62,619 nucleotides of DNA, from positions 1 through 62,619 of the forward strand of contig JBMZJQ010000004.1 of the NCBI GenBank assembly GCA_049617635.1, given 5' to 3'. Both the position numbers and the translations under genes were made by a program. Below, one piece after another: positions 8,305-61,016 of the stretch (the first letter of the stretch is position 1; each line of letters starts with the position of its first letter). Under the pieces are notes generated by a model. That model did not search any database and was not told the origin of the DNA. It worked only from the letters and a program-made list of their open reading frames with translations. The DNA is from Poseidonia sp. Its GTDB lineage: Archaea > Thermoplasmatota > Poseidoniia > Poseidoniales > Poseidoniaceae.

Positions 8305-9084
8305 TCAGGCGTTGTTGCGCTGGGTTTTGCATCCCACGCCCCAATCCGGTTGAGCAGCCATCGCCCGACGAGTGGCTTCAAGCAACACGTCCTCTGGCGT
8401 GGCTTCGCTTGGTGTTGAGGGGGTCATAGCAAGGGATAAATGGTATTCATTTTCCACCCAATATACCAATTGGATTTTTGAATTTCCAATTGAAATTTCA
8501 CATTCTTCTAACCCAATTGGAATTTCAATTTCTCGTGGATTGAGGTGCATCCCGAGACCGAGTGATTTCTGCACCGCTTCTTTGGCGGTCCACGACACCA
8601 TGGCCGATGCTGGGTGTTCTTGCAAGGCAGCAAGTTCCCGCCCTTTTGCCATCATGTCGTAGGCGTTCGACGCAAGTGTTCGTGTCAGCGGTTCAGCATC
8701 GATGCCCACACGGTGACTCGGCGGGCTGAGCGCAACGAACACACGACCGTGGCTGTGGGCGATGGAGACATGGGGCAGTGGTGTTCGTTTCCAAACCCCC
8801 TGAATGTAGTTGAGGTACGGTGCTCGATGCTCGGTACGATGGACCTCAAGACACGACAGGTCGTCAATACCCCAGCGATGCAAGGCCAGACCCAGCAACC
8901 AGCGGCCGCTCAGGTGTTCATCCATGCGCTTCTGTGTGACGAAGGTCGCCACTTCGTTGGCATCAGCGAGAGGCACATCACCGGGTGCGTGGTGATGCAG
9001 GGGAGCCGACAGAACGAGAAGCCCATCGTGCTTCAACGGAGGTGCGTGTTGGACGATGCCGTCCATGTCCTCACCGTTGGTCAT
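8305..9084 (-). CDS. Sfp-type 4'-phosphopantetheinyl transferase (PfaE-like)
   Basis: Motifs HRVGIDAEP (GxD-x-E) and WTAKEAVQKSLG (W-x-x-KE-x-x-x-K). The start overlaps the megasynthase stop by 4 nt (9081-9084). Confidence 0.85.
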   Translation of the reverse strand: MTNGEDMDGIVQHAPPLKHDGLLVLSAPLHHHAPGDVPLADANEVATFVTQKRMDEHLSGRWLLGLALHRWGIDDLSCLEVHRTEHRAPYLNYIQGVWKRTPLPHVSIAHSHGRVFVALSPPSHRVGIDAEPLTRTLASNAYDMMAKGRELAALQEHPASAMVSWTAKEAVQKSLGLGMHLNPREIEIPIGLEECEISIGNSKIQLVYWVENEYHLSLAMTPSTPSEATPEDVLLEATRRAMAAQPDWGVGCKTQRNNA

Positions 9085-12000
9085 CGGTCCAGCGAGAACC
9101 GCTGACCGTCTTCAACCGTTGCCATGGCCTTCAACTGCAGACCTCTCAACGCCATGACCGGGGCATCGTCCTCACCAACCACAAGCACATCGTGAACGGT
9201 GATACCGTCGTCTTGATGGCCGGTTTGGACGCTACGCAATCGAAGGGCTTCGTTGGCTTCGGGCACACGCAACATGGTCGACCACGTGATCCCGACAGGC
9301 AGGCTGCTGAAGCCCAGCGTTTCCATCGCCACCAGGCCGGCGTTTTGGAAGCCCGCCTCAATAAGCATCGGTAGGGCTTCGAGAAGCACCTGTTCTCCCT
9401 CCCGTTCCACAGCAAACTGGTCTGTTTCGGGGAGTTGGTGTCGCATCAAGGCAACACCGTCAATGCCCATGACATCCCCTTCGCCTACACCTCGCAAGAC
9501 GCCACCATGGGATTGGAAACGGGGGCCGTGGAAATACCGGTCGTAGATGAACGAGGCTGGGTGCAACAAGGCTCCGGCCGGTGGCGTTCCAATCGTCGGC
9601 AATTCATCCACCTCGCGTTGCAAGAACGGACACATGTCGTCGCATTTCTCCACCAAGCGGACCAACGCTGTGTGGTGGTCACGCTCACCAAAGACCTCTC
9701 CTTTCGAATTTGTAAGGTCAGACACCAAGCGGCATCGAACCCACGTCATGTCGCCCTCGGTACGCTCAACTTGAGCGTCAACCCGAACCGTCATCGGCCC
9801 CTTCATGAGTTTCACAGGCAGGCCAAAGGTGACCTCTTCGAAACCTGCAAGGCAGGTTGATGGTCGAAGCAACAAGGCGTTTTGTGCAAACATCTCAAGC
9901 GCCATCACACCGGGATGATAGGGCACGCCTTCGATGGCATGGTCAACCAAAAACGGATGGTCTTCGGTTGACAACGTGCTTTGCGAAACCATGTGGCTCC
10001 CCTCTTCCAGCGACACCACCTTGTCCATGAAGGGGAATCGTGCAGGGTCGGCCATCATGGCCGACATCTCTGCTGGAAGTTTCAGTGGCGCCTCACGGAA
10101 CGAAGAGAACCGGTCCATCAGGCCGAGGGACCCGCACCCAAGCACCCGCCGCTTGCCCCCTTGAAGGGCTTCGGCGACGAAAATGGCCACGCCGTCCTCA
10201 ACGGCGAGGGTCTCGATGCCGGCCGCTGCGAACACCGCTTCAATAGAGCCTCGAGTGGCCATGCCGACGTCGCGCCAGCCCGTCCACCCGATGGCGACAC
10301 CGCGTCCTTCCGAGGTGGCGGTGAGCCGAGCCATTTCAGCATCAAGCACGGAGTTGGCCGCAGCGTAATCGGTTTGTCCACCGTTCCCAAAGCGACCCGC
10401 AACGCTGGTGAAACAGCATGCAAAGGTTGGGTTCTCTCGTCCAGACGCGCGAACGGCTCCCAGCAAGGCTCGCCAGCCGTCCACTTTGACACGAACCACA
10501 CGGTCAAACACGTCGTAGCCTTTGTCGCCCACCAGCTTGGAATCCTCCAAGCCCGCTCCGTGAACAATGCCCGTGATGGGTCGTCCGAGTGACGCCCCCA
10601 ACGTCGCCAGGCCCTCGTGGTCCATGACATCAACAGAATGGTAGGAGGCGTGGTTGCCGGTGGCTTCGATAGCGCTGAGGGTGAGGTACACGTCCCGGCT
10701 TCGAGTGAATCGCTGCCACGCGTTGTTCCATTCCACCATGGTGACCTTTCCACTCTCGCTGGCTTCGATGAGCCGCTGGCGAAGTTCGTTCTTTTCTTGG
10801 TCGAGTTGAGCCTCATCCCAATCAATCCACGAAGAGGTCGACTCGACGAGTGTTGAGCGCCCGAGCAAAACAAAGTGAGCGCCAGCCTTTGGCGAAGCCT
10901 TGGCCACGCCGATGACGGAGGCAGCGGTCACGCCCGACCCACCGCCGGAAACCAGCCAAGTGTCCTCCGCCGTCAATGGCTGGGTCTCTTCGACCACATC
11001 CTCGGCAAAGGCAACCAGAGCCCATCGTCGCCCGTCTCGGTCAAGACCGATTTCGACCTCGCCGGCCAAGCCAAAGATATCCGCTTCGACCATGGCGGCC
11101 GCAGATGCCTCGTCAAACACATGCTCTGGATGCAGATCGAGGGCCCTGCAACGGAGGTCCGTTCGTTCAAAGGCGAAGGATTTGGTCACACCGCTTGCCG
11201 CACATTGCACGGCGTTGAAGCGGTCACCAATGTTGCCGTGACGACCGTCAAGGGCGGTCACGGAAGCGATGAATCCTGGAGCCTCGGTGGACATCAACGG
11301 GCTCAACTCCTTCAGCAGACCGAACCAACCGTGGGCCGCAAGGGCGATTTGCGAAGAAGGATAGGTGTCCTCTTCCCATTGTTCTGAGGCGAGTTTCATC
11401 GGTGCCATGTGAACCATGCCAGCGATGCTTGAGGAACCAAGTTGTTGAGCAATCCACTGAAGATGCTCGGGTTGCTCGGGGTCGGCACGGTAAACGGTTC
11501 GACCGTTTTCGTCCATGGACGAGGGGTCTCGAATTCGGGTTTCGAAGCCGATTCGAACCGCCTCCAAACCGCGTGCTTCCATGCGTTGACAGAAGGCTTC
11601 AGCGATGCCCCAGCCGTCATCGGACACCACGACGGTGCCCTTCACCTCAAGCGAAGCGGGTACGCCAGGGCATGCCTCAATCTCAACTTGCCACCGGCGC
11701 GTACCGGCTTGGAACGAGGAGGGGGCCGAATCCAAAGGAGCCGAAGAGGTCGGCGCTTCACTGACCGATGACGATGCCTCGGCTGGCGGGGTCGCATCAC
11801 CGGTCATTTTGACGATGTAGGCTGTGAAGTGGTTCAGTGTAGGATGGTCGGCGAGAACGAAGTCCTCGTCCACAGGCAGAGCGAAGCGGTCCCTGATTTC
11901 TGCCATGATTTCAGCCTGTTTCACGGTATCAATGCCCAATTCACCTTCCAAATCTTGGTCCATCTCAATGAAATCCGGAGGATAGCCTGTGTGGCTGACG

Positions 12001-15000
12001 ACCACCTCGACCAGCACCGACTCAATGTCGGGTCTGGGCCCGGTTGGTGCTGGCGGAGAGGGAGCGGGCGATGCGGTTACAGGTGGCGATGGAGGCGTGA
12101 CGGCTTGGGGCGTTGGTGCTGGTGCCGCTGCAGGCGTCGCTGCTCCGCCACCCTGCATGCGCTGAATGTAGCCGATCATGTGGTTCAGCGTGGGGTGGTC
12201 GGCGAGAACAAAGTCCTCGTCAATGGGGAGTGAAAATCGATCTCGAATGTCCGCCATGATCTCGGCTTGCTTGACGGTGTCAATGCCCAACTCACCTTCC
12301 AAATCTTGGTCGAGTTCAATGAAATCGGCAGGGTATCCAGTGTGCTGAACAACCACGGCGACCACCGTTTCGGTCATGGCCGCGTCATCGACAACAGCAG
12401 GCGCAGCCGCTGCTGGTGCAACGACCGGTGCGGGTGCGGGGGTCGCAACTTGGGCGGGCTCGGAAGGTGCGGGGGCCGGGGCGGGCGGGGCGGCAGCGGG
12501 GGCACCTCCGGTCATGCGCTGAATGTAGCCGATCATGTGATTCAAGGTGGGATAGTCGGCAAGGACGAAGTCCTCGTCCACCGGCAAGCCGAAACGTTCT
12601 CGGATGTCGGCCATGATTTCGGCTTGCTTGACGGTGTCAATGCCCAACTCGCCTTCCAGGTCTTGGTCCAACTCAACGAAATCAGCGGGATACCCCGTGT
12701 GATGAACCACAACGTCGATCACCGTGGCCACCGTATCTCCACCGGCTTCGACGGCGGGAGTTGCGACAGGGGCCGCTGGTGGTGCAGGCGTTGGTGCCGG
12801 TGCCACCTCAGCGGGAGCGGGTTGTGCGGGCGGCTCAACCGCCTTGGGTGCGGGCTGTTCGACCACGGAGGGTTGGCCTTCCCATTCTTGGGTTGGTGGC
12901 CAAGCATCGCCTTGTACCCCGCCGTGGAGGTTGTCGTCGCCGTTGACGTAAGCGACCAGTTTGTTTTGCAGAATTCGCATCACTACGTCGTCCGTACCTG
13001 CCAGCGTGCGTGCCCAAGCGAGGAGTTTTGCCCCGTTGATACGGTCGCCCTCAACCGGCCATTTCTTCATGAGCGAGAGCGCAATTTGCGAGCCAAACCC
13101 TGCCGCAAAGCGGAGACCGTACTTGAGTTCGGGGTAGTCTCCTCCCGTCGAGAGGTTGAGATCGCCGAGCTCTGGGTCCTTCTCTTTGTGGTTGGCAATC
13201 GGAGGGATACGACCCGTGAGCAAGCCGTAGAACATGCTGGCGTCTTCGATGCCCACCGCCATTGGATGGCCGGTGAAGCCTTTCGTGTTGGCGATGACCA
13301 ACTTGTTGGTTGATTCACCAAAGGTCTCACGCAAGGCCCTCACTTCGGACTGGGCGGAACCTCCACGGGCTGGCGTGTAGGTCTCGTGGGAGAAAAAGAC
13401 GGTGTCAGGGGCCATCTCGTGACGGTTAAGGCCCCATCGTTGTTCCATATCGGCGATGAACCCGTTGACCACGGCACCCACGTGTTCCACATCGAGCCGT
13501 GTGCCGTGGTAGGCTGAGTTGGCGGTGGTTGAACCCAAGAACTCGGCGATGGGTTGCACGCCTCGTTGTTCTGCTTCGGAGTGGCGCTCGACGACAAAGG
13601 CCGCCGCACCCATGCCCAAAATCAGGCCGTTACGACGACGGTCAAAGGGCAATGCCGTTTCCTCAACCACGTTGCTCGTGGCGGCTGCACCCGAGGCTGC
13701 AAAGCCGCCGGCAATCCATTCCCAGAGGTCATCGCCGGTCACGTCGTCACCGCTGATGATGACCACACGGTCCACTCGACCGGCGTCCAACCAATCCTCG
13801 GCAACGCCGAACGCTGCCGTGGCCGAGGCGCAGGCGAGGTTGATGGTGGTGTTTGGTCCCCGGATGCCCGTGTATTGGGCAAATTGAGAGTGGCCCATGT
13901 TGAGGGTTTGGAACAGGTAGCGACGGTCAAACCGTCCCTCACCGTCATCGCCGTTGTTCTTGGCGTGCTTGGACGCCATTTGCAAACCGGGGAAACAGGA
14001 GGAAAACACGATACCGGTGCGTTCGCGTTGCATCTGCGGCACCTGCCAGTTTCGAATCAGGCGCAGGCCGCCTTTGCCCACCTGCTCAACGGGCGTGAGG
14101 GGGATGCCGGCGTCGCGCAACGCCAGCAATCCGGCAGCAACCGCCAACTGTGTGCTGATGTCCCATGCCACGATGGCTTTTGGATCGATGCCGAATTCCT
14201 CAGCCAAGTCAAAGGCGCCCTTGAGACCGGCCAGTTGTGGAATGTCACCAAACACCGTGGCTTGGTCCATGTTCACCGAACCGTCACGGCCTTTGATGAG
14301 ACGAACGATGTTCTTGTCCAGCAAACGTTGCTTGTATTCATCCGAAACCTCGCTGATGCACGTTTCTCCACGCACCAACTTCTCAAAGGCGTCCTCCGAG
14401 AACACCCGTTCCATGCCCGGCAAACCCAAGGAAATACCCGTGACCACGTACGGGTCAATATCGCGCGTTGAGGTGGGCTGGAGCGCAGATACGGTCTGCA
14501 CGGCAACCGCCTTGAGCGAGGGGGGAGCGGTGACCGTGGCCATCGGCCTCCAGGTTGCTGGTGGCTCGCGTACCCAGCGAGTGAGATCGCCGGCCGTCAC
14601 GGCCGACGCCCCATCGAATTCCGGGTCGGTGGTCGATTCCGAGGCGATGGTCGCCACCACCTGTTGCACCTGAGCTGACGTGAGGCCCAAGCCTTCCACC
14701 AAGGCCACGTTGCCGTGACAGAAGGAGGCAGGATAGCCGCTGAACTTGGCCACACGGTCGCCGACATACGCCCGGATGGAACGTTCCCGCGCGTACTCGT
14801 CGTCCATGTTGGCAACATGAACCACGGAGGTTGGTGGAGCCGAAGGGACACTGGCGCCGCTTCCGGGCAGGGGGCGAGCACGGACACGCAAAGCCTCCAA
14901 TTCTGCGCTGGTGGAGGAAGCGCTGAGGGATGAAGCCATGCGAGCCTCGATGGGACCGGCTTTGAACCCGTCCTGCAGTGCAGGCGAATCCAAGGCAGGC

Positions 15001-17906
15001 CAAGCAGGCGGACGACCGGCGATGGCCATCGCACCGATGGCGGTGAACAGACTGGCAACGCCGCCTTGCTTGGGATGGTTCGTCATCACCGGCACGTGCG
15101 GGCGGCCTTCGAGAATCTGCATCGCAAACATCGTGAGGGCTCGCTTCGGACCAACTTCGACAAAGAGGCGCCCTCCAGCCTCGTACATGGTCTCAATCTG
15201 TTTGGTCCACTCAACGGACGATGCCATTTGTGGAGCCAATTTGACCAGGATATCGGTCTTGGAATCCTCACCCTTCATCGGATAGAACATACCGTCAACG
15301 TTGGCTGTAATAGGGACCGACGGCCACCGAATCTCAAGGCCTTCCAGGAAGCGGCGCAGCGGTTCGTTTGCTGGCGCCACGATACGCGAGTGGAAGGCGT
15401 GCGAGGTGGCCAATTCCACGCAGTTGAACCCCTTCGCCTCAAACGCCGCCATCGCGGCACGCACGGGTGCTGTCTCGCCGGCGATGACCGTCATCTTGGG
15501 TGAGTTTTTGTTGGCGGCGATGACGTAGCCGTCGGTGGCGTCGAGAATGGCCTCCACCTCTTCGAACGGAGCCGTCACGCTGGCCATGAGGCCTTTGTCG
15601 TCAATTTCCACAGCGCCCATTTCCGTGCCACGGGCGGCAGCTGCTCGCAGGGCACCGTCCATATCGAGGATGCCCGACGACATCAAGGCAGCGTATTCGC
15701 CCAGCGAATGGCCAGCCACCATGTCGGGTTGATGGCCGAAACTTTGCAGCGTTCGCTCGATGGCCAAATCGGCCGTCAGCATGGCCGGCTGGGTGTATTC
15801 TGTTTGCTTGAGTTTGTGCTCGGCCTCTTTCAATTCCTCAGCCGTCAGTGAGGAACGGAGCACGAAACTGGAGAGCGTTTCGCCGTCGAGTACGTCGATC
15901 ATGGTCTCGTCTGCCTGCGCCCACACCTCTGCAGGGGCCGTGAAGCGCTGAACCAAATCGGCGGTCATGCCCACGTATTGACTGCCTTGGCCGGGGTACA
16001 TGTGGACGGCTTTCGCTTCGCTTGGCAAGGCCGGCTGGTCGGTCACCAGCACCCCTTGAGCCTGCAGGAACCCCCACTTGTCTTTGTCAGCCAGGGCTTG
16101 GGCGGCCAGGGTTTGGCGCTTGGAAAATTCGGCCCAGGACGTGGCCACCACGGCCAAGCGAACGGCGGCTGTCGCCTCAAATGCACCGCTGGCGGTTTGC
16201 AAGGCTTCGGAGAGGCGTCGCCCCCGCGGGTCGTCGTCAAACAACGGGCCGCTGAACGACAAGGCCCCAAGTTGTGCCGCCACCTCTTCCAAGGAATCTC
16301 CTGAAAGCAACAGAACGCCTCCCTCAACGGCTTTGAGCGCCTCGTGCGTCATTGTTGCCTCAAGCGCACCATCGAAAATGGACGGTGCAGCGGCGCTGGA
16401 TTGGCCGCTGTAGGCTTGCCATCGTGCGTCCCATTGGGAGGCCAACGGGGCGTGGTAGTCGGGTTCGTATCCTTCGAGAGCCAGGTGGAAATTGGTCCCA
16501 CCGAAGCCAAACGCAGAGACACCGGCACGCCTTGGGTGGTCGCTTGGCCGAGGCCAATCGAGCGGCTGTGTTGGGACAAAGAACGGAATGTTGTTCCAAT
16601 CCACGGTTGGATTGGGGGTTTCGAAATTGGCACTGGGAGGTATGGTGCGGTGGTGCAGGGCCATCACGGCCTTCATGATGCCAGCAATACCCGCAGCCGC
16701 CTTGAGATGGCCGATTTGTGACTTGATGGAACCAACCGCCACCTTGCCCGTTCCCTCAACGCCGGTCCAGAGACGGGACAGGGTGGACAGTTCCGTTGCA
16801 TCCCCCACTTTGGTGGAGGTGCCGTGGGCTTCGACGAGTTCAACGCTTGATGCGGGGTATCCCGCTTGGGCATACGCCCGTGCTATCGCTTGAATTTGCC
16901 CGCGTTGGCTCGGCGCCGTGATCCCTTTTCCTCGGCCGTCGGAAGAGCCGCCCACGCCTCGAATGACGCTGAAGATGGCATCGTCGTCTCGAATAGCATC
17001 GCTCAATCGCTTCAGGACCAACACGCCGGCTCCTTCGCCCATCACGAACCCGTTCGCCCGAGCATCAAACGGAGAGGAGTGGCTTGGAGAAAGGGCGCCG
17101 ATGGCTGAGAATTTTGCAAACGTAGCAGGGTCCATGGTTCGGTCCGAAGCGCCCGCGAGCATGACGTCCACTTGACGGGTCTGCAACAGCCGGCAAGCAT
17201 CGAGCACCGCAGCCATGGAGGACGCACACGCCGCATCCATGGCGTGGTTCGGCCCCTGCAAATCGAGCAGGTTGGCCACGCGCCCCGACACCACGTTGGC
17301 CAACTCACCCGGCATGGTGTCTTCGTCGACTCGCGGCGTGCCTTCGAGCACAGAGGCCGTGAAGGCGTCGGCTTGGTCGGCCGGCAGGCCGTGTTGCTTT
17401 GCCAGTTCGGCGGTGTGGTTGGACCACACGCGAATGTTGGACATGTTTCGGTTTTCACCACCGAGAGCATTGGCGAAGACCACCCCGGTTCGGGAGCGAT
17501 CGAGGTCCTTGGATTCGCCATCGTAGCCAGCGTGCTCGATGGCATCGGCTGAGACCGTTACCGCCCACTGCTGGCAGGGGTCGATTTGCGGAAGGGTCCC
17601 GGGAGGTTGTCGCCAACGACGCCAATCGAATTCCGCATCGGTCACCAGCGCTCCGATTTTGGCGTAGGTGAAGCCTTCGGTGTGGGCGCCAGGGCCGCCT
17701 TCCTTCCAAAAATGGTCAACAGGGCCGGGCCAGCGGCCTTCTGGCAGGGGTTTGATGCTGACCTTGGCATCGAGCACGTTTTGCCAAAAGGCGTCAATAT
17801 CGTGAGCGTCGGGCATCAACGCCCCTACACCGATGACGGCGATGGGTTCGAACGGTCCTTGTTCGATGCCCTCGCAGGCTTTGCCGTCTTCGGTCGTCAG
17901 CGTCAT
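9081..17906 (-). CDS. Iterative type I FAS/PKS megasynthase (PUFA-synthase PfaA-like): KS - malonyl-AT - carrier-like - KS - 3x ACP - KR - PS-type DH
   Basis: Uninterrupted 2941-aa ORF. Motifs in order: DAACASS / EAHGTST / GSIKSQIGH (KS1); GQGSQ, GHSLGE, HAFHS (AT); GLGLTS (carrier-like); NLACASA / SHETYTP / TGHPMAVG (KS2); 3x LGIDTVKQAEIMA separated by Ala/Pro linkers (ACPs); GGGSGVT ... YAAAN (KR); LVDHAIEGVPYHPG (DH). Confidence 0.95.
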   Translation of the reverse strand: MTLTTEDGKACEGIEQGPFEPIAVIGVGALMPDAHDIDAFWQNVLDAKVSIKPLPEGRWPGPVDHFWKEGGPGAHTEGFTYAKIGALVTDAEFDWRRWRQPPGTLPQIDPCQQWAVTVSADAIEHAGYDGESKDLDRSRTGVVFANALGGENRNMSNIRVWSNHTAELAKQHGLPADQADAFTASVLEGTPRVDEDTMPGELANVVSGRVANLLDLQGPNHAMDAACASSMAAVLDACRLLQTRQVDVMLAGASDRTMDPATFAKFSAIGALSPSHSSPFDARANGFVMGEGAGVLVLKRLSDAIRDDDAIFSVIRGVGGSSDGRGKGITAPSQRGQIQAIARAYAQAGYPASSVELVEAHGTSTKVGDATELSTLSRLWTGVEGTGKVAVGSIKSQIGHLKAAAGIAGIMKAVMALHHRTIPPSANFETPNPTVDWNNIPFFVPTQPLDWPRPSDHPRRAGVSAFGFGGTNFHLALEGYEPDYHAPLASQWDARWQAYSGQSSAAAPSIFDGALEATMTHEALKAVEGGVLLLSGDSLEEVAAQLGALSFSGPLFDDDPRGRRLSEALQTASGAFEATAAVRLAVVATSWAEFSKRQTLAAQALADKDKWGFLQAQGVLVTDQPALPSEAKAVHMYPGQGSQYVGMTADLVQRFTAPAEVWAQADETMIDVLDGETLSSFVLRSSLTAEELKEAEHKLKQTEYTQPAMLTADLAIERTLQSFGHQPDMVAGHSLGEYAALMSSGILDMDGALRAAAARGTEMGAVEIDDKGLMASVTAPFEEVEAILDATDGYVIAANKNSPKMTVIAGETAPVRAAMAAFEAKGFNCVELATSHAFHSRIVAPANEPLRRFLEGLEIRWPSVPITANVDGMFYPMKGEDSKTDILVKLAPQMASSVEWTKQIETMYEAGGRLFVEVGPKRALTMFAMQILEGRPHVPVMTNHPKQGGVASLFTAIGAMAIAGRPPAWPALDSPALQDGFKAGPIEARMASSLSASSTSAELEALRVRARPLPGSGASVPSAPPTSVVHVANMDDEYARERSIRAYVGDRVAKFSGYPASFCHGNVALVEGLGLTSAQVQQVVATIASESTTDPEFDGASAVTAGDLTRWVREPPATWRPMATVTAPPSLKAVAVQTVSALQPTSTRDIDPYVVTGISLGLPGMERVFSEDAFEKLVRGETCISEVSDEYKQRLLDKNIVRLIKGRDGSVNMDQATVFGDIPQLAGLKGAFDLAEEFGIDPKAIVAWDISTQLAVAAGLLALRDAGIPLTPVEQVGKGGLRLIRNWQVPQMQRERTGIVFSSCFPGLQMASKHAKNNGDDGEGRFDRRYLFQTLNMGHSQFAQYTGIRGPNTTINLACASATAAFGVAEDWLDAGRVDRVVIISGDDVTGDDLWEWIAGGFAASGAAATSNVVEETALPFDRRRNGLILGMGAAAFVVERHSEAEQRGVQPIAEFLGSTTANSAYHGTRLDVEHVGAVVNGFIADMEQRWGLNRHEMAPDTVFFSHETYTPARGGSAQSEVRALRETFGESTNKLVIANTKGFTGHPMAVGIEDASMFYGLLTGRIPPIANHKEKDPELGDLNLSTGGDYPELKYGLRFAAGFGSQIALSLMKKWPVEGDRINGAKLLAWARTLAGTDDVVMRILQNKLVAYVNGDDNLHGGVQGDAWPPTQEWEGQPSVVEQPAPKAVEPPAQPAPAEVAPAPTPAPPAAPVATPAVEAGGDTVATVIDVVVHHTGYPADFVELDQDLEGELGIDTVKQAEIMADIRERFGLPVDEDFVLADYPTLNHMIGYIQRMTGGAPAAAPPAPAPAPSEPAQVATPAPAPVVAPAAAAPAVVDDAAMTETVVAVVVQHTGYPADFIELDQDLEGELGIDTVKQAEIMADIRDRFSLPIDEDFVLADHPTLNHMIGYIQRMQGGGAATPAAAPAPTPQAVTPPSPPVTASPAPSPPAPTGPRPDIESVLVEVVVSHTGYPPDFIEMDQDLEGELGIDTVKQAEIMAEIRDRFALPVDEDFVLADHPTLNHFTAYIVKMTGDATPPAEASSSVSEAPTSSAPLDSAPSSFQAGTRRWQVEIEACPGVPASLEVKGTVVVSDDGWGIAEAFCQRMEARGLEAVRIGFETRIRDPSSMDENGRTVYRADPEQPEHLQWIAQQLGSSSIAGMVHMAPMKLASEQWEEDTYPSSQIALAAHGWFGLLKELSPLMSTEAPGFIASVTALDGRHGNIGDRFNAVQCAASGVTKSFAFERTDLRCRALDLHPEHVFDEASAAAMVEADIFGLAGEVEIGLDRDGRRWALVAFAEDVVEETQPLTAEDTWLVSGGGSGVTAASVIGVAKASPKAGAHFVLLGRSTLVESTSSWIDWDEAQLDQEKNELRQRLIEASESGKVTMVEWNNAWQRFTRSRDVYLTLSAIEATGNHASYHSVDVMDHEGLATLGASLGRPITGIVHGAGLEDSKLVGDKGYDVFDRVVRVKVDGWRALLGAVRASGRENPTFACCFTSVAGRFGNGGQTDYAAANSVLDAEMARLTATSEGRGVAIGWTGWRDVGMATRGSIEAVFAAAGIETLAVEDGVAIFVAEALQGGKRRVLGCGSLGLMDRFSSFREAPLKLPAEMSAMMADPARFPFMDKVVSLEEGSHMVSQSTLSTEDHPFLVDHAIEGVPYHPGVMALEMFAQNALLLRPSTCLAGFEEVTFGLPVKLMKGPMTVRVDAQVERTEGDMTWVRCRLVSDLTNSKGEVFGERDHHTALVRLVEKCDDMCPFLQREVDELPTIGTPPAGALLHPASFIYDRYFHGPRFQSHGGVLRGVGEGDVMGIDGVALMRHQLPETDQFAVEREGEQVLLEALPMLIEAGFQNAGLVAMETLGFSSLPVGITWSTMLRVPEANEALRLRSVQTGHQDDGITVHDVLVVGEDDAPVMALRGLQLKAMATVEDGQRFSLDR
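9102..10034 (-). other. PKS/PUFA-type dehydratase (double hotdog) domain (aa ~2625-2935)
   Basis: HxxxGxxxxP motif (H2656-G2660-P2665) in HPFLVDHAIEGVPYHPGVMALE. Confidence 0.8.
10227..10964 (-). other. Ketoreductase domain (aa ~2315-2560), preceded by a structural pseudo-KR region (aa ~2070-2310)
   Basis: Rossmann motif VSGGGSGVTAAS, catalytic Y in QTDYAAANSV, and upstream K (VKVDG) and S (FTSVAG). Confidence 0.8.
11802..12743 (-). repeat. Three tandem ACP domains (351-357-nt period) separated by Ala/Pro-rich linkers
   Basis: Near-identical 75-80-aa units. The GIDT codons lie at 12633-12635, 12276-12278 and 11925-11927, and all three are ACC (Thr). Confidence 0.85.
13062..14459 (-). other. 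KS2 domain (aa ~1150-1615), Cys1359 at 13830-13832
   Basis: NLACASATAAF (Cys), FFSHETYTP (His1507), NTKGFTGHPMAVG (His1547) and a C-terminal GFGSQIA. Confidence 0.8.
14577..14789 (-). other. Carrier-protein-like domain (aa ~1040-1110) with Ser1077 at the canonical position
   Basis: FSGYPASFCHGNVALVEGLGLTSAQVQQVVATI aligns by eye with the downstream ACPs (HTGYPADFVELDQDLEGELGIDTVKQAEIMADI). Its Ser (TCA, 14676-14678) aligns with their Thr. Confidence 0.4.
15117..16010 (-). other. Acyltransferase domain (aa ~633-930), Ser734 at 15705-15707, malonyl-type
   Basis: YPGQGSQ, GHSLGEYAA and the HAFH specificity motif. Confidence 0.9.
16473..17849 (-). other. KS1 domain (aa ~20-478), active-site Cys227 at 17226-17228
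   Basis: Cys-His-His triad motifs: DAACASS, EAHGTST and SQIGHLKAAAG. Confidence 0.9.
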
Positions 17907-17915
17907 GTCGTCACC

Positions 17916-18707
17916 TCAATTCATGATGCTCTCGGGAACCATCGTGATGGAATATCCAGCATCGACGTAGATGCATTGGCCGGTGACGCCCGATGCCAGC
18001 GGGCTTGAAAGCCACAACGTTGCACCGGCGACGTCGTCCTGGTTGACGTTTCGACGGAGCGGAGCGTTGGCTTCGACGTGGTCCAAAATACGATCAAACC
18101 CTGGAATGCCGCTGGCGGCGATGGTGCGGATGGGGCCCGAGGAAATGGCGTTGATGCGATGGCCTTCGGGGCCAAGGTGGCAAGCCAATTCCCTGGTCCA
18201 GCATTCCAAGGCGGCTTTCGCCATCGACATGATGCCGTAACTTGGCACGAATCGCGTGGAGGCGGCGTACGTCAAGGTCACCGTCGACGAGCCCGGGTTG
18301 AGGTAGGGGAGTGCATGCTTGAGACAGCGCTGAAGGGAATTGGCCGAGATGGTCATCGCCGTGTTGATGTCGTCGTCTTCAACGAACAGAATCGGTCGGT
18401 CAAAGCAAGAGCGAGGAGCAAAGCCGATGGCGTGAATCAGGATGTCGGCCTTTTTACCCGGATGTTCTGCTGCAAACGCAGTGAAAAATTCCGCCGTGGT
18501 GGCGTCGGAGGCGACATCCAAAGGATAGAATCCTCCAATCGCAGGGAGTTGGTCCTTGAGCTGGAACACACGGCTCATGAACCGCTTCTGGTACCCCAGA
18601 TAGAGGGTGACTCCAGCGGCTGCCAACTGCTGACAAATCGCCCATGCAATGGAGTCTTCACTGGCCACCCCGAAGACAAAGGCTGTTTTTCCTTCAAGAC
18701 CCAACAT
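17916..18707 (-). CDS. fabI: Enoyl-[acyl-carrier-protein] reductase, FabI type (SDR)
   Basis: MLGLEGKTAFVFGVASEDSIAWAI (typical FabI N-terminus) and Y-x6-K in YGIMSMAKAALE. Its stop is 9 nt upstream of the megasynthase start. The ATG at 18707 is preferred over the GTG at 18716. Confidence 0.9.
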   Translation of the reverse strand: MLGLEGKTAFVFGVASEDSIAWAICQQLAAAGVTLYLGYQKRFMSRVFQLKDQLPAIGGFYPLDVASDATTAEFFTAFAAEHPGKKADILIHAIGFAPRSCFDRPILFVEDDDINTAMTISANSLQRCLKHALPYLNPGSSTVTLTYAASTRFVPSYGIMSMAKAALECWTRELACHLGPEGHRINAISSGPIRTIAASGIPGFDRILDHVEANAPLRRNVNQDDVAGATLWLSSPLASGVTGQCIYVDAGYSITMVPESIMN

Positions 18708-18828
18708 GAAAAACACTCCGTGGGGAACAGGTGTAGTGCGCTACACCAAGCCTTTGACTGTTGCCCATGAAAACGGGACACATCGGCCGAGTTACGAAGC
18801 AAAACACCACGACGGAGCAACCCGTTCA

Positions 18829-19968
18829 TCACAGGTCAGCAAAGACGGCATCGAAGTCATCTTCACCGTCTCCGTCCTCGGGGAACAAATCGTCGAGTTC
18901 TGAGAAATCAAATTCTTCCTCTTCCGGCTCATCCTCAACGTCCACGGGCGGGACATACATCGGTTGCGAGTTGGCTTTTCGACGGAGTGCTTTCGCCAAA
19001 GCCAGGACGAAAATCAGACCGAACAGGACGGCTGCACCAATGCTGCCATAGAGCACGACGGTGTCTTTGTTGACTTCTTCAAGCCCGCCGCCCAGTCCGC
19101 CAGCCGTGTTGCCGGCCTCGAGTTGAACGGAGATGCTCAGTTCACTGACGGGTGCTTCCTCGTCGTTTTGGCTCTCCGCTTGGAAGATCAGTTGGAAGCG
19201 CTCGTCCTCCACCACATCTGAAGGTGCGCGCACCGTCAATTCACGCACGGTGGAAATGCCATCCTCTGCAACATTTTCCGACACAAACGTGCCGCCGGGG
19301 AAGGTGAAGCCTGCTTCTTCGAGGACGTCGGCGTTGGTGATGGAGACCCTGATGTTGTCGTCATCGTTGCCGTTGTTTTGGAACTGGAAGGAAATTTTGA
19401 CCTCATCGCTCTTCTTCATGGTCCGTGTGCTCTTGTCAGAGATGTCAAGGTCCACCATGCCAAAGGTGGCGATGTTCAAATCACCGCTCACGGTAGCGTT
19501 GGAGGACAAGCCTTCGGGCCAGTCCAACATGCCGACGTTGGTCACGGTTGCGACGAGGGTAAAGTCGTAGGATAGCGAAGAGGAGAGGCGGGTTTGCCCC
19601 GTGAAGGTGACGAGGAAATCTTCCTCTTCGTCAGGACCGAGGTCAAAGGTGTCCTCCTCAAGCATCATGTCAACTTCGATGCCATCCCATTCTTTCTCAA
19701 CGTTGATCGATTCTTGGAAGGAGGAGGGGTTCTTGACCGTGCAGGTGATTTCAACCACGGGCGTGCTCAAGGGGTGGACGTCAAGTTCGGGTTGCTTGTT
19801 GTCGCAATCGATTTCCACACCCGGTGCGGTGGGCACCTGAGCGCCAACAGGCGGTGCGAAGGAGAGAACCATCAACATCAGCACCAAAACGGACCAACGG
19901 CGAGATGACAACATGGCGCTCCCACCTTCGCCTGTCCATCCTCTTTCATCAATGTGCTGGGCGGCCAA
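18829..19968 (-). CDS. Secreted, C-terminally TM-anchored protein with two beta-sandwich (CARDB/NEW3-like?) modules and an acidic cytoplasmic tail
   Basis: Signal peptide (WSVLVLMLMVLSFAPPVGA), a late TM helix (VVLYGSIGAAVLFGLIFVLALA), then a DE-rich tail. No catalytic motif recognised. Confidence 0.6.
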   Translation of the reverse strand: MAAQHIDERGWTGEGGSAMLSSRRWSVLVLMLMVLSFAPPVGAQVPTAPGVEIDCDNKQPELDVHPLSTPVVEITCTVKNPSSFQESINVEKEWDGIEVDMMLEEDTFDLGPDEEEDFLVTFTGQTRLSSSLSYDFTLVATVTNVGMLDWPEGLSSNATVSGDLNIATFGMVDLDISDKSTRTMKKSDEVKISFQFQNNGNDDDNIRVSITNADVLEEAGFTFPGGTFVSENVAEDGISTVRELTVRAPSDVVEDERFQLIFQAESQNDEEAPVSELSISVQLEAGNTAGGLGGGLEEVNKDTVVLYGSIGAAVLFGLIFVLALAKALRRKANSQPMYVPPVDVEDEPEEEEFDFSELDDLFPEDGDGEDDFDAVFADL

Positions 19969-28135: not shown

Positions 28136-28235
28136 GGTGTCACCTACGCTCCCCGGAAGCCTTGACCACCTAAAATCTCGTCGCTCTTCCGACTCTGCAT
28201 ACCGATTTGACGGCCTTTGGCTGGCTGAATTGAAG

Positions 28236-28739
28236 ATGAGTTATGAGGGAGAACAGGTTGGCAGGTTCATGGAGCCTTATTCCACCGAACCGGTGACCCT
28301 GATTGAAGAGGTGTTTCCACAAGACACCAACGCCTACGACACCTTGTTTGGTGGTCGATTACTCTCGCTGATGGACAAAGCAGGTGGGATCGCTTGTGCC
28401 AAATTTGCCCACCGCGAATTTGTCACGATTTCCATCGACACACTGACCTTCATCGCTCCCGCCCGTCAGGGTGACTTGTTGGAAGTGACCGGTCGCGTGG
28501 TGTTCACCAGCAGCCACACGGCTTGCACGAAAGTCACGGCGTACACCATGAGCAAGGCCACCTGGGAAAAGAGCATCATTTGCGAGGGGTACTTCTTTTT
28601 CGTCGCCATCGATTCCATGATGCGCCCCATTCCTGTGCCTCAATTCACACCTTCTTCAGAGGAGGAAACCGAGGACTGGAACAAGGCCAAAGCCATTCGG
28701 GACAACATGCTGGCGCAAAAGGCCAAGCGCCAAGAATGA
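28236..28739 (+). CDS. Acyl-CoA thioesterase (hotdog fold, YciA/ACOT-like)
   Basis: VFPQDTNAYDTLFGGRLLSLMDKAGG matches the P-x-D-x-N-x-x-G-x-x-FGG-x-L motif of acyl-CoA hydrolases. The ATG at 28236 was chosen because upstream codons would overlap the divergent giant gene's promoter region. Confidence 0.8.
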   Translation: MSYEGEQVGRFMEPYSTEPVTLIEEVFPQDTNAYDTLFGGRLLSLMDKAGGIACAKFAHREFVTISIDTLTFIAPARQGDLLEVTGRVVFTSSHTACTKVTAYTMSKATWEKSIICEGYFFFVAIDSMMRPIPVPQFTPSSEEETEDWNKAKAIRDNMLAQKAKRQE

Positions 28740-59965: not shown

Positions 59966-59969
59966 CTCC

Positions 59970-60989: not shown

Positions 60990-61016
60990 TGATTCACACC
61001 TCTGCCATGACCGGGT

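What the first reader, a model, noticed from the sequence alone, without database searches (positions are those of the whole stretch)
8305..18707. Self-contained type I FAS/PKS operon (FabI + 2941-aa KS-AT-KS-ACP3-KR-DH megasynthase + Sfp-type PPTase) inside an archaeal chromosome
Seen in sequence:
- Three minus-strand genes are packed with a 9-nt gap (17907-17915) and a 4-nt overlap (9081-9084).
- All catalytic motifs look intact: KS DAACASS / EAHGTST / SQIGH; AT GQGSQ, GHSLGE, HAFH (malonyl type); KR GGGSGVT...YAAAN; DH HxxxGxxxxP; FabI Y-x6-K; PPTase GIDAEP and WTAKEAVQK.
- KS + AT + ACP + KR + DH + trans-ER + PPTase is every activity needed for iterative de novo acyl-chain synthesis.
- Archaeal hallmark genes flank it on the same contig (carS at 3996, TBP-fold at 20875, orc1/cdc6 at 36787), with similar codon style.

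Established knowledge: archaeal membranes are isoprenoid ethers. Archaea are generally regarded as lacking ACP-dependent FAS. To my knowledge, PfaA-like type I synthases are a bacterial and eukaryotic feature.

Inference: this is a horizontally acquired, apparently functional fatty-acid, secondary-lipid or polyketide pathway in an archaeon. Its product is unknown.
Basis: partly seen in the sequence, partly recalled or inferred. Interest (0 to 1): 0.9.

Follow-up and report, generated by a model that had tools for sequence, protein, structure and literature searches.

The report
Archaeal fatty-acid synthase with threonine carriers
A marine archaeon (Poseidoniales) carries a conserved, complete three-gene fatty-acid-synthase-like machine. 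It belongs to a large, apparently undescribed family also found in Asgard archaea and many bacteria, whose carrier domains have threonine where every known acyl carrier has serine. This may be the missing source of fatty acids in archaea suspected of making bacterial-type membranes.

Summary
Three tightly packed minus-strand genes encode a FabI-type enoyl reductase, a 2941-aa KS–AT–KS–ACP×3–KR–DH synthase and an Sfp-type PPTase. They sit among archaeal genes on a Poseidonia (Marine Group II) chromosome.

It is not an assembly chimera or a recent import. The same operon lies at the same site in both Poseidoniales families, including on a 2-Mb contig. All catalytic motifs are invariant in 118 homologues, and codon usage matches the host.

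- All ACP domains have Thr, not Ser, at the phosphopantetheine site.
- The protein is not a PfaA. It belongs to a large family with the blueprint [ER]–KS–AT–FabF-like KS–ACP(Thr)n–KR–DH–[PPTase], found in at least 494 species genomes.
- The family is widespread in Archaea (Heimdall-, Loki-, Bathyarchaeia, Thermoplasmatota), often as one fused protein beside acetyl-CoA carboxylase genes.

Best reading: a self-sufficient ACP-dependent synthase of saturated fatty acyl chains. I found no paper describing it.

The parts
17916..18707 (-). FabI-type (SDR) enoyl-ACP reductase, 263 aa from ATG 18707. It is the trans-acting ER of the system.
   Evidence: Pfam adh_short_C2 1.2e-68. All top PDB hits are enoyl-ACP reductases; the best is 1ULU at E=1.3e-56, full length, with the Tyr/Tyr/Lys motif (LTYAAS...SYGIMSMAK) aligned. 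It lies immediately 5' of the synthase in every archaeal locus with enough flank.
17907..17915 (-). 9-nt intergenic spacer GGTGACGAC between the FabI stop and the synthase ATG. It contains a Shine-Dalgarno-like GGTGA.
   Evidence: Sequence read directly. The SD-like reading is my inference.
16329..17849 (-). KS1 domain plus C-terminal extension (aa 20-526). It is PKS/PfaA-like, with active-site Cys227 in DAACASS, His in EAHGTST and His in KSQIGH.
   Evidence: Pfam ketoacyl-synt, Ketoacyl-synt_C and KAsynt_C_assoc. Best NCBIfam hit is TIGR02813 PfaA, below its cut-off. Motifs are invariant in 118 homologues.
15108..16007 (-). Acyltransferase domain (aa 634-933) with GQGSQ, GHSLGE and HAFH, a malonyl-type signature.
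   Evidence: Pfam Acyl_transf_1 6.7e-36. TIGR00128 FabD 2.3e-56. Motifs invariant. Malonyl specificity is inferred from the HAFH motif, which is established PKS knowledge.
12987..14447 (-). KS2 (aa ~1154-1640), a second, FabF-like ketosynthase. The Cys (NLACASA), His (SHETYTP) and His (KGFTGH) are all present.
   Evidence: PF00109 7.4e-16 on the segment. Best PDB relatives are type II FabF at E~3e-25, with the triad aligned. Motifs invariant. This domain defines the family: 972 clusters (50% identity) at E<1e-30.
11814..12734 (-). Three tandem ACP domains (aa ~1725-1805, 1847-1914, 1964-2031) separated by Ala/Pro-rich linkers. Each has the core ELGIDTVKQAEI, with Thr1758, Thr1877 and Thr1994 at the phosphopantetheine position.
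   Evidence: Pfam PP-binding x3. The Thr aligns with the DS(L/I/V) Ser of solved ACPs. Thr fills 373/373 core motifs in 120 Poseidoniales homologues, 400 vs 15 Ser in distant representatives and 386 vs 8 in the Asgard/Thermoplasmatota set. All four Thr codons are used.
10227..10979 (-). Ketoreductase catalytic subdomain (aa ~2310-2560) with GGGSGVT and the catalytic Tyr in DYAAAN.
   Evidence: Pfam KR 3.5e-21. Motifs invariant.
9084..10034 (-). PKS-type (double hot-dog) dehydratase (aa 2625-2941) with HAIEGVPYHP. No thioesterase domain follows.
   Evidence: Pfam PKS_DH_N 9.2e-10 and a weak PS-DH hit. The His is invariant. No TE family was reported.
8305..9084 (-). Dedicated, highly divergent Sfp-type 4'-phosphopantetheinyl transferase (259 aa) with GIDAEP and WTAKEAVQK. 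Its start overlaps the synthase stop by 4 nt (ATGA).
   Evidence: Pfam ACPS 3.1e-09. No PDB sequence hit even at E<=1. The AF2 model has pLDDT 88.8, and the top 32 Foldseek PDB matches are all Sfp-type PPTases. It is homologous to the C-terminal PPTase domains fused to many family members.

Best explanation
The three genes encode a self-sufficient, ACP-dependent, iterative type I fatty-acid synthase.

Proposed mechanism:
1. The dedicated PPTase converts the three tandem ACP domains to their holo form. The attachment site is inferred to be the conserved Thr hydroxyl.
2. The AT loads malonyl units from malonyl-CoA.
3. Two complete ketosynthases, a PKS-like KS1 and a FabF-like KS2, share priming and elongation.
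4. KR, the PKS-type DH and the trans-acting FabI fully reduce each beta-keto group.
5. The product is a largely saturated acyl-ACP.
6. No thioesterase is encoded in the operon. The chain is presumably passed to unlinked acyltransferases or hydrolases, such as the PlsC/PlsY reported for these archaea, to make ester-linked lipids.

The operon is the split form of a widespread prokaryotic megasynthase family with the blueprint [ER] - KS - AT - KS(FabF-like) - ACP(Thr)n - KR - DH - [PPTase]. It was already present in the ancestor of Poseidoniales.

Shown here: gene content, domain integrity, conservation, synteny, family membership and the gene fusions.
Inferred: Thr phosphopantetheinylation, full reduction, chain length and the fate of the product.
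For: Domains and motifs:
- All domains and catalytic motifs are present and invariant in 118 homologues.
- KS2 has an aligned Cys/His/His triad and is FabF-like.
- FabI aligns full length with solved enoyl-ACP reductases.
- The PPTase model has an Sfp-type fold.

Synteny and inheritance:
- FabI-synthase-PPTase adjacency holds in every archaeal locus with enough flank.
- The u268-TBP-TatD flank is shared by MGIIa and MGIIb, and the operon is found on a 2.04-Mb contig.
- Codon usage matches the host: RSCU r=0.96, GC3 0.68.

Fusions (Rosetta-stone evidence):
- About 45 of 156 family representatives fuse a homologous PPTase domain to the C-terminus while carrying Thr-ACPs.
- About 20 fuse a FabK/PfaD-type ER at the N-terminus.

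ER slot filled by non-orthologous enzymes at the same 5' position:
- FabI in Poseidoniales.
- An NMO domain in Asgard copies.
- An acyl-CoA-dehydrogenase gene (with ETF in Acidobacteriota) in bacteria.
This argues that enoyl reduction is essential.

Link to malonyl-CoA supply:
- A multidomain ACC lies directly downstream in bacteria.
- ACC-CT, BCCP, BC and biotin ligase lie next to the Loki and Heimdall copies.

The carrier site:
- Only Ser and Thr occur in the family's LG(I/V)DxVK carrier core (the only other residues were in off-type matches such as LGMDPIK).
- All tandem repeats in a protein usually share the same residue; two proteins mix Ser and Thr.
- All four Thr codons are used, and Ser is one mutation away.
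- So the hydroxyl, and Thr specifically, is under selection.

Literature:
- PlsC/PlsY and G3P dehydrogenase are reported in the same archaeal lineages (PMC6461757 supplement; PMC6431249).
- A 2024 preprint states that archaea lack FAS I/II and that ACP and ACP synthase are absent from nearly all of them (10.1101/2024.07.05.601840).
Against: - No biochemical or expression data exist.
- Phosphopantetheinylation of Thr has no precedent I could find. If it does not occur, the ACPs would be inert.
- No thioesterase or acyltransferase is in the operon.
- The alpha/beta-hydrolase that accompanies the Asgard copies has no homologue in the window or in the Poseidoniales loci.
- Only a biotin carboxylase was found in the window, with no CT or BCCP, so malonyl-CoA supply is unverified here.
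- FabI does not reach NCBIfam equivalog cut-offs (224 vs 391 bits).
- Two full KS domains and a PKS-type DH would also fit a specialised lipid.
- The prevalence of the operon within Poseidoniales was not quantified.
Confidence: 0.68

Rival explanations
1. The system is functional but makes a specialised secondary lipid or polyketide, not general membrane fatty acids. Candidates are a very-long-chain, hydroxylated or partly unsaturated acyl chain, an alk(en)yl product, or a lipid anchor. It would then be analogous to Pfa-like secondary lipid synthases, HglE or the enediyne PKS.
For: - KS1-AT is most similar to PfaA and modular PKSs.
- Tandem ACPs are a hallmark of secondary-lipid synthases (PMC3098273).
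- The DH is PKS-type.
- There are two distinct KS domains.
- Bacteria that carry the family presumably also have FAS II, so there it must be an accessory pathway.
- The KS-AT-...-KR-DH-PPTase order recalls the enediyne PKS (own knowledge).
Against: - An enoyl reductase is always recruited at the 5' end (FabI, NMO or ACAD), which points to full reduction.
- There is a tight link with acetyl-CoA carboxylase and biotin ligase, but no tailoring enzymes (P450, methyltransferase, glycosyltransferase, TE) in the archaeal operons.
- There is no FabA-type DH/isomerase for cis double bonds.
- According to the cited preprint, archaea have no other ACP-dependent FAS, so this would be the only source of acyl-ACP.
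Confidence: 0.22
2. The carrier domains are not phosphopantetheinylated because Thr replaces Ser. The enzyme then either works on CoA-bound or otherwise tethered substrates, or the ACP-like repeats carry a different modification or play a structural role.
For: - Thr fills the site in nearly all family members.
- No literature on Thr-linked phosphopantetheine was found.
- From memory, the E. coli ACP S36T mutant is reported to stay in the apo form. I did not verify this here.
Against: - A dedicated PPTase gene or fused domain travels with the Thr-ACP synthases. That would be pointless without a substrate.
- The Ser and Thr variants are otherwise identical (LGIDSVK vs LGIDTVK) and occur within single clades and even within single proteins.
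- ACP copy number varies from 2 to 6, as in throughput-tuned tandem ACPs.
- The rest of the ACP core is canonical.
Confidence: 0.07
3. The operon is a bacterial fragment joined to archaeal DNA by mis-assembly or mis-binning, or it is a recent strain-specific horizontal insertion.
For: - GC content is slightly higher over the synthase (0.60-0.616) than in the flanks (0.56-0.58).
- The individual domains are of bacterial type.
Against: - The same flanking archaeal genes are seen on independent assemblies, including 2.04-Mb, 1.5-Mb, 595-kb and 549-kb contigs.
- The operon is present in MGIIa and MGIIb at the same site.
- The archaeal sequences form their own clades (MGIIa 95%, MGIIb 99% NJ bootstrap).
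- Codon usage is host-like.
Confidence: 0.01

Closest known systems
PfaA subunit of bacterial polyunsaturated fatty acid (PUFA) synthases (NCBIfam TIGR02813) and related Pfa-like secondary lipid synthases
   Same: - KS-AT at the N-terminus, which gives the best curated-family hit.
- Multiple tandem ACPs with an almost identical core (LGID-x-[IV]K).
- KR followed by a PKS-type DH.
- A dedicated Sfp-type PPTase and a trans or separate ER.
- Iterative fatty-acyl synthesis.
   Different: - Scores below the PfaA cut-off (840 vs 1010 bits), and only the KS-AT part matches.
- An extra FabF-like KS lies between AT and the ACPs.
- Thr replaces Ser in the ACPs.
- No PfaB or PfaC (KS-CLF plus FabA-type DH) partners.
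- The ER here is FabI (SDR), not PfaD (NMO/FabK type).
- No isomerising DH is present, so PUFA synthesis is unlikely.
Enediyne polyketide synthase PKSE (KS-AT-ACP-KR-DH-PPTase), from my own knowledge
   Same: An iterative type I enzyme with the same domain order. In many family members it ends in an integrated PPTase that self-activates the ACP. In Poseidoniales that PPTase is a separate gene overlapping the stop codon.
   Different: - PKSE has one ACP (Ser), no second KS and no ER.
- PKSE makes a conjugated polyene released by a dedicated thioesterase.
- This family always recruits an ER and is linked to ACC.
Bacterial type II FAS components FabF and FabI
   Same: - KS2 is most similar to solved FabF proteins, with the full Cys-His-His triad.
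- The ER is a FabI-type SDR with the Tyr-x6-Lys motif.
   Different: - KS2 is embedded in a megasynthase and is divergent: Pfam detects only the N-terminal half.
- FabI scores below all NCBIfam FabI equivalog cut-offs.
- There is no free-standing ACP, FabD, FabG or FabZ.
ACP-independent archaeal fatty acid synthase complex proposed for Sulfolobus acidocaldarius (bioRxiv 10.1101/2024.07.05.601840)
   Same: Both address de novo fatty acid synthesis in Archaea.
   Different: That system is built from thiolase, SDR and MDR-type enzymes acting without ACP. The system here depends on ACP and a PPTase, is of the type I megasynthase kind, and occurs in different lineages (Poseidoniales, other Thermoplasmatota, Asgard, Bathyarchaeia).
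Animal-type FAS I and mycocerosic-acid-synthase-like iterative PKSs
   Same: A single polypeptide with KS, AT, DH, KR and ACP that works iteratively. KS1 matches these at E~1e-48 to 1e-79.
   Different: - The domain order differs: ACPs come before KR-DH.
- There is no integrated MDR-type ER and no TE.
- There are two KS domains and tandem Thr-ACPs.

Membership tests
PfaA (TIGR02813, PUFA synthase subunit A) | Whole-protein score at or above the curated NCBIfam cut-off | tested here: not met
   840.1 bits against a cut-off of 1010.1. The best stretch covers only model positions 8-915 of 2582, the KS-AT part.
PfaA (TIGR02813, PUFA synthase subunit A) | Tandem ACP domains followed by KR and a PKS-type DH | tested here: met
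   Three PP-binding domains, then KR and PKS_DH_N.
PfaA (TIGR02813, PUFA synthase subunit A) | Partner genes pfaB, pfaC (KS-CLF plus FabA-type DH) and pfaD (NMO-type ER) in the cluster | tested here: not met
   None appeared in the Pfam scans of the window ORFs that were tested (43 ORFs, mostly of 150 aa or more). The operon partners are FabI and a PPTase only, and this holds across Poseidoniales.
PfaA (TIGR02813, PUFA synthase subunit A) | Ser as the phosphopantetheine attachment residue in the ACP core LGIDS(I/V)K | tested here: not met
   Thr at all three sites, and in 373/373 motifs in homologues.
Iterative type I FAS/PKS (general kind) | KS with a Cys-His-His triad, AT with GHSxG, KR with Rossmann motif and catalytic Tyr, DH with HxxxGxxxxP, and a carrier domain on one polypeptide | tested here: met
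   All motifs are invariant in 118 homologues. The carrier domain is present but carries Thr at the attachment site.
Iterative type I FAS/PKS (general kind) | Carrier domain is phosphopantetheinylated and carries the growing chain | not testable with these tools
   Only indirect evidence exists: dedicated PPTase genes and fusions with Thr-ACPs and Ser/Thr-only variation at the site.
FabI (SDR-type enoyl-ACP reductase) | Pfam adh_short_C2 above cut-off, and the catalytic Tyr/Tyr-x6-Lys aligned with solved ENRs | tested here: met
   231.7 bits against a cut-off of 27. Full-length alignment to 1ULU at E=1.3e-56 with the motif conserved. All 60 PDB hits shown are enoyl-ACP reductases, one of them annotated FabL.
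FabI (SDR-type enoyl-ACP reductase) | NCBIfam equivalog cut-off for FabI | tested here: not met
   The best hit, NF005615, scores 223.8 bits against a cut-off of 391. This is a divergent member.
Sfp-type (type II) 4'-phosphopantetheinyl transferase | ACPS domain above the Pfam cut-off, and the conserved metal- and CoA-binding motifs (GxDxE; W/F-x-x-KE-x-x-x-K) | tested here: met
   ACPS scores 37.3 bits against a cut-off of 25. GIDAEP and WTAKEAVQK are present. G127, D129, E131, K168, E169 and K173 are invariant in 30 homologues.
Sfp-type (type II) 4'-phosphopantetheinyl transferase | Two-subdomain pseudo-dimeric fold of about 230 aa | tested here: met
   AF2 model with pLDDT 88.8 and pTM 0.84. 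The top 32 Foldseek PDB hits are AASDHPPT, Sfp, PptT, PptAb and PcpS, with TM 0.46-0.66 and probability 1.00. Sequence-only search of the PDB finds nothing.
Enediyne PKS (PKSE) | KS-AT-ACP-KR-DH-PPTase with a single ACP, no ER, and a dedicated thioesterase partner | tested here: not met
   The order KS-AT...KR-DH followed by a PPTase is shared. However, there is an extra KS, 3 ACPs, an ER partner and no TE. The PKSE definition is from my own knowledge, and no PKSE model was among the top NCBIfam hits.
Family proposed here: [ER]-KS-AT-KS(FabF-like)-ACP(Thr)n-KR-DH-[PPTase] | Internal KS2 with the SHE(T/P)xTP and KGFTGH motifs, ACP core LG(I/V)DT(V/I)K, the same domain order, ER at the 5' end and PPTase at the 3' end | tested here: met
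   KS2 is 35-56% identical to 115 representatives. All 31 labelled archaeal and bacterial relatives examined have the KS2 motif.

The most novel reading that the evidence does not exclude
This is the founding archaeal example of an undescribed, domain-spanning class of type I fatty acid synthases with two properties.

1. The carrier domains bear phosphopantetheine on threonine rather than serine, installed by co-evolved dedicated PPTases. That would be a new variant of a universal post-translational modification.
2. The class is the missing fatty-acid source in those Archaea that also carry bacterial-type ester-lipid genes: Marine Group II, other Thermoplasmatota, and Heimdall- and Lokiarchaeota.

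If so, mixed or fatty-acid-based membranes in Archaea, and an archaeal-host contribution to eukaryotic fatty-acid lipids, become directly testable with a defined gene set.
Probability: 0.35. Interest if true: 0.93.

Novelty: new variant of a known kind. Interest (0 to 1): 0.82.

Why it matters
Archaea are defined in textbooks by isoprenoid ether lipids. A 2024 preprint still states that they lack type I and type II FAS, and that ACP and ACP synthase are absent from nearly all of them.

[quoted passage not shown] They are uncultured and lack G1P dehydrogenase. They have been proposed to make mixed membranes, on the basis of G3P dehydrogenase and plsC. Rinke et al. drew the fatty acid synthesis step as hypothetical.

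This operon supplies that missing step as a concrete, conserved gene set that can be expressed. The same synthase family lies next to acetyl-CoA carboxylase genes in Heimdall- and Lokiarchaeota, the closest relatives of eukaryotes. That bears on how the eukaryotic lineage came to use fatty-acid membranes.

Separately, a carrier-protein family that has fixed Thr at the prosthetic-group site challenges the universal serine rule for phosphopantetheinylation. It also predicts PPTases with a new specificity, which would interest PKS/NRPS engineers.

Tried and rejected
- Chimeric assembly or contamination: rejected by conserved synteny on long contigs.
- Recent HGT island: rejected. Codon usage and GC3 are host-like, and the operon sits at the same locus in both Poseidoniales families.
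- Membership in PfaA: rejected.
- Second KS as a chain-length factor or pseudo-KS: rejected. Cys/His/His are present, aligned and invariant.
- PUFA product: considered unlikely because there is no FabA-type DH, PfaC or PfaD.
- The 379-aa gene between TatD and FabI (18829-19968) as a cluster member: rejected. It is absent from MGIIb loci, which keep the rest of the synteny.
- Degenerate ACP-like motif GLGLTSAQ at aa ~1072: poorly conserved, left unassigned.
- Sequence search of the PPTase against the PDB: nothing found. Resolved by structure prediction.
- Asgard-type alpha/beta-hydrolase, CT or BCCP in the window and Poseidoniales loci: none found.
- Literature: ten full-text searches combined Poseidoniales/Marine Group II/archaea with polyketide synthase, fatty acid synthase, ACP, PPTase, megasynthase and Thr-phosphopantetheinylation phrases. 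They found no description of this synthase or of Thr-linked phosphopantetheine.
- Key older papers not held and so not checked: Villanueva et al. 2017, Dibrova et al. 2014 and Martin-Cuadrado et al. 2015.
- Deep phylogeny: only neighbour-joining trees on the KS2 domain were possible. Deep nodes are unresolved, so the direction of inter-domain transfer is not claimed.

Full report
**1.

- The minus strand carries three ORFs: 8305-9084 (259 aa), 9081-17906 (2941 aa) and 17916-18716.
- The FabI ATG at 18707 gives 263 aa, the same length as homologues called on other contigs.
- The FabI stop and the synthase ATG are separated by GGTGACGAC (17907-17915). The synthase stop overlaps the PPTase ATG as ATGA (9081-9084).
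- Pfam finds these domains in the large protein:
  - KS N and C domains (aa 20-429)
  - a KS C-terminal extension
  - AT (634-933)
  - three PP-binding domains
  - KR (2403-2546)
  - PKS_DH_N (2625-2715)
- Pfam also finds adh_short_C2 (1.2e-68) in the upstream protein and ACPS (3.1e-09) in the downstream one.
- The surrounding genes are archaeal: CDP-archaeol synthase, TBP, Orc1/Cdc6 and a PPAT-DUF359 fusion.
- An identical protein is deposited as a Poseidonia sp. MAG protein with a generic name.

**2. Not an artefact and not a recent import**

- More than 120 clusters (90% identity) of full-length homologues at 69-100% identity exist, some on contigs of 0.7-2.0 Mb.
- On a 2.04-Mb contig and a 191-kb contig the order is the same as in the window: large ORF, u268, TBP, TatD, FabI, synthase, PPTase, then M28 peptidase further on.
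- A scan of one genome per GTDB species found at least 494 genomes with a relative. The 80 best included 40 Poseidoniaceae, 11 Thalassarchaeaceae-type loci and 2 other euryarchaeotal MAGs.
- In every archaeal locus with enough flank, FabI lies directly 5' and the PPTase directly 3' of the synthase.
- The u268-TBP-TatD flank is shared by both Poseidoniales families. The operon therefore occupied this site in their common ancestor.
- Codon usage of the synthase correlates at r=0.96 with the other window genes, and GC3 is typical.
- All catalytic motifs are invariant in 118 homologues, while overall identity falls to about 70%.

**3.

- The region between AT and the ACPs is a genuine second ketosynthase.
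  - PF00109 scores 7e-16 on the segment.
  - Its best solved relatives are type II FabF enzymes (E~3e-25).
  - The Cys (NLACASA), His (SHETYTP) and His (KGFTGH) align with the FabF triad.
  - It is therefore not a chain-length factor.
- KS1-AT is PKS/PfaA-like, but the protein does not reach the PfaA cut-off (840 vs 1010 bits; only the KS-AT part matches).
- The DH is PKS-type. No thioesterase domain and no FabA-type DH are present.
- FabI aligns full length with solved enoyl-ACP reductases, with the Tyr/Tyr-x6-Lys residues conserved.
- The PPTase has no sequence match in the PDB even at E<=1.
  - A confident AF2 model (pLDDT 88.8) matches only Sfp-type PPTases in its top 32 Foldseek hits.
  - The GxDxE and KE...K motifs are invariant in its homologues.

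**4. The unexpected feature: threonine carriers**

- All three ACP cores read ELGIDTVKQAEI.
- In HMMER alignments to solved carrier proteins (PigH, spinach ACP, actinorhodin and other type II ACPs), the Thr lies exactly on the phosphopantetheine-bearing Ser of the D-S-(L/I/V) motif.
- Counts of the residue at this site:

| Sequence set | Thr | Ser |
|---|---|---|
| 120 Poseidoniales homologues | 373 | 0 |
| 149 distant representatives (35-56% identity in KS2) | 400 | 15 |
| 105 Asgard/Thermoplasmatota-centred relatives | 386 | 8 |
| Bacterial loci | 74 | 0 |

- Ser variants (LGIDSVK or LGIDSIK) occur in one MGIIb species, two unplaced euryarchaeotal MAGs and one Heimdallarchaeota protein. Two proteins mix Ser and Thr.
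- All four Thr codons are used at the site, and Ser is one substitution away. Thr is therefore actively maintained, and only hydroxyl residues are tolerated.
- I found no paper that mentions phosphopantetheine on threonine.

**5. The family and what it says about mechanism**

- A search of 1.84 billion representatives with aa 1001-1830 found 972 clusters at E<1e-30. Nearly all have KS2 at the same relative position.
- The domain order KS1-AT-KS2-ACPn-KR-DH is kept in all bacterial loci examined: Acidobacteriota, Myxococcota/Deltaproteobacteria, Acidimicrobiia and other Actinomycetota, and Steroidobacteraceae.
- Three further observations constrain function.
  - **PPTase fusions.** About 45 of 156 representatives carry a C-terminal PPTase domain homologous to the window's PPTase, together with Thr-ACPs. 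Nearly all archaeal copies outside Poseidoniales do so. The Poseidoniales PPTase gene, which overlaps the synthase stop codon, is the split version of this domain. This is fusion evidence that the PPTase serves these Thr-ACPs.
  - **The ER slot.** The position just upstream or N-terminal is always filled by an enoyl-reducing activity, but by unrelated enzymes:
    - FabI in Poseidoniales
    - a fused FabK/PfaD-type NMO domain in Asgard, Bathyarchaeia and some bacteria
    - an acyl-CoA-dehydrogenase gene in about 21 of the bacterial loci with enough 5' flank, preceded by ETF-alpha/beta and an Fe-S/CCG oxidoreductase in Acidobacteriota

    Such non-orthologous displacement argues that full reduction of the chain is part of the function.
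  - **Link to malonyl-CoA supply.**
    - A large multidomain acetyl-CoA carboxylase follows the bacterial genes.
    - The Lokiarchaeota copy lies on a 4.36-Mb contig among proteasome, SBDS, exosome, L37ae and Pcc1 genes. It is flanked by biotin ligase, ACC carboxyltransferase, an alpha/beta-hydrolase overlapping its stop codon, BCCP and biotin carboxylase.
    - A Heimdallarchaeota copy has the same companions.

**6. Most likely mechanism**

1. The PPTase activates the ACPs. Attachment to Thr is inferred.
2. AT loads malonyl. The HAFH motif supports malonyl specificity (inferred).
3. KS1 and KS2 condense.
4. KR, DH and FabI reduce each unit.
5. A mainly saturated acyl-ACP results (inferred).
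6. With no TE in the operon, release is probably by unlinked enzymes.

Supporting literature:
- Poseidoniales carry plsC and G3P dehydrogenase but no G1P dehydrogenase. The fatty acid synthesis step was drawn only as hypothetical (PMC6461757 and its supplement).
- PlsC/PlsY are found mainly in MGII/III, DPANN and Asgard archaea (PMC6431249).
- Apart from DPANN, these are the lineages where this synthase family occurs.

I give this reading about 0.68. The main rival, at about 0.22, is a specialised secondary lipid or polyketide. An unmodified, non-canonical carrier is unlikely (about 0.07). An artefact is excluded.

**7. Evolution**

- In neighbour-joining trees of KS2, MGIIa (95% bootstrap), MGIIb (99%) and MGIIb plus two unplaced euryarchaeotal MAGs (99%) are well supported.
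- The whole Poseidoniales-type clade has 65% support, and an Asgard-rich clade 71%.
- Other Thermoplasmatota and the bacteria fall elsewhere, and the deep branches are unresolved.
- The building blocks are of bacterial type, so a bacterial origin is plausible. The direction and number of inter-domain transfers are not shown here.
- What can be said: acquisition predates the MGIIa/MGIIb split, and in Poseidoniales the ER partner was replaced by FabI.

**8. Novelty and limits**

- The proteins are in public databases under generic names such as [quoted passage not shown] and "SDR family oxidoreductase".
[quoted passage not shown] 2017, as cited in PMC7852524 and in a 2026 review. I could not read that paper.
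- Neither Rinke 2019 nor Tully 2019 mentions the synthase.
- A 2024 preprint states that archaea lack FAS I/II and nearly all lack ACP and ACP synthase.
- Ten full-text searches found nothing on this architecture or on Thr-ACPs.
- I rate it a new variant of a known kind (iterative type I FAS/PKS), with high interest.
- Limits:
  - There is no biochemical or expression evidence.
  - Taxon labels come from MAG records, though the key cases were checked on long contigs.
  - Prevalence within Poseidoniales was not quantified.
  - ACC carboxyltransferase and BCCP were not found in this window.
  - The trees are distance-based only.

Noticed in passing
L056, L061-L066, L068-L071, L074-L078, L081 (bacterial loci); e.g. 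L064:16-4861 and 15089-17581; L056:3276-5099 and 13459-17664: Bacterial members of the family (Acidobacteriota, Myxococcota, Actinomycetota) sit in a conserved operon. An acyl-CoA-dehydrogenase-like gene lies directly upstream, preceded in Acidobacteriota by ETF-beta, ETF-alpha and an Fe-S/CCG oxidoreductase. A eukaryote-style multidomain acetyl-CoA carboxylase (BC-BCCP-ACC_central-CT) lies downstream. This suggests an ACAD/ETF-driven enoyl reduction step in an uncharacterised bacterial type I FAS.
   Followed up: partly
L083:8348-25545 (Lokiarchaeota, contig JAIZWK010000001.1, 4.36 Mb) and L084:2623-18746 (Heimdallarchaeota, contig JACCLD010000002.1, 930 kb): Asgard archaea carry an all-in-one ER-KS-AT-KS-ACP(Thr)n-KR-DH-PPTase protein of about 3,580-3,795 aa. 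It sits in an island with biotin ligase, ACC carboxyltransferase, BCCP, biotin carboxylase and a conserved alpha/beta-hydrolase. In the Loki copy the hydrolase overlaps the synthase stop codon, making it a candidate chain-release enzyme.
   Followed up: partly
L048, L054, L055; proteins P0150, P0123, P0262, P0244, P0441: A few lineages have Ser instead of Thr at the ACP site: one MGIIb species, two unplaced euryarchaeotal MAGs (UBA558, UBA182) and one Heimdallarchaeota protein. Two proteins mix Ser and Thr repeats. In the Ser-type archaeal loci the downstream PPTase is unusually divergent (28% identity in L048; only a weak match in L055).
   Followed up: partly
window 32317-33657 (-): A biotin carboxylase (AccC/PycA-like; 43% identical to the Lokiarchaeota BC that lies next to its synthase). 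No adjacent BCCP or carboxyltransferase gene was found, so whether it supplies malonyl-CoA is open.
   Followed up: partly
window 27870-28739 (+): An ORF with a 4HBT (hot-dog) thioesterase domain lies about 9 kb from the operon and diverges from the 1966-aa gene. It is a possible acyl-thioester hydrolase, but no linkage to the operon was tested.
   Followed up: no
window 52666-53616 (+), 54494-55273 (-), 55283-56734 (-), 50078-51247 (+): Beta-oxidation-type and related genes share the contig with the synthase: 3-hydroxyacyl-CoA dehydrogenase, enoyl-CoA hydratase, aldehyde dehydrogenase and a PaaA/PaaC-like protein. The organism would thus have both degradative and synthetic fatty-acid capacity.
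   Followed up: no
window 57-3785 (+), 22235-28135 (-), 41157-43649 (-): Three very large ORFs (1242, 1966 and 830 aa) have no Pfam match. The 1966-aa gene is syntenic with the operon flank throughout Poseidoniales.
   Followed up: no
window 18829-19968 (-): A 379-aa ORF with no Pfam hit lies between TatD and FabI. It is present in MGIIa loci (28-81% identity) but absent from MGIIb, and it is called as a fusion with TatD (680 aa) on the 2-Mb contig. It is probably not part of the synthase system.
   Followed up: partly
window 58382-62567 (-): Two T2SSF-like genes and a T2SSE/PilB-like ATPase gene, typical of an archaeal type IV pilus or archaellum assembly locus.
   Followed up: no
window 14490-14900 (-) (aa ~1000-1140 of the synthase): The roughly 180-aa stretch between AT and KS2 has no domain assignment. 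It contains a weakly conserved GLG(L/M)(S/T/A) motif that faintly resembles a degenerate carrier core, and it is the least conserved part of the protein (mean identity 0.52).
   Followed up: partly
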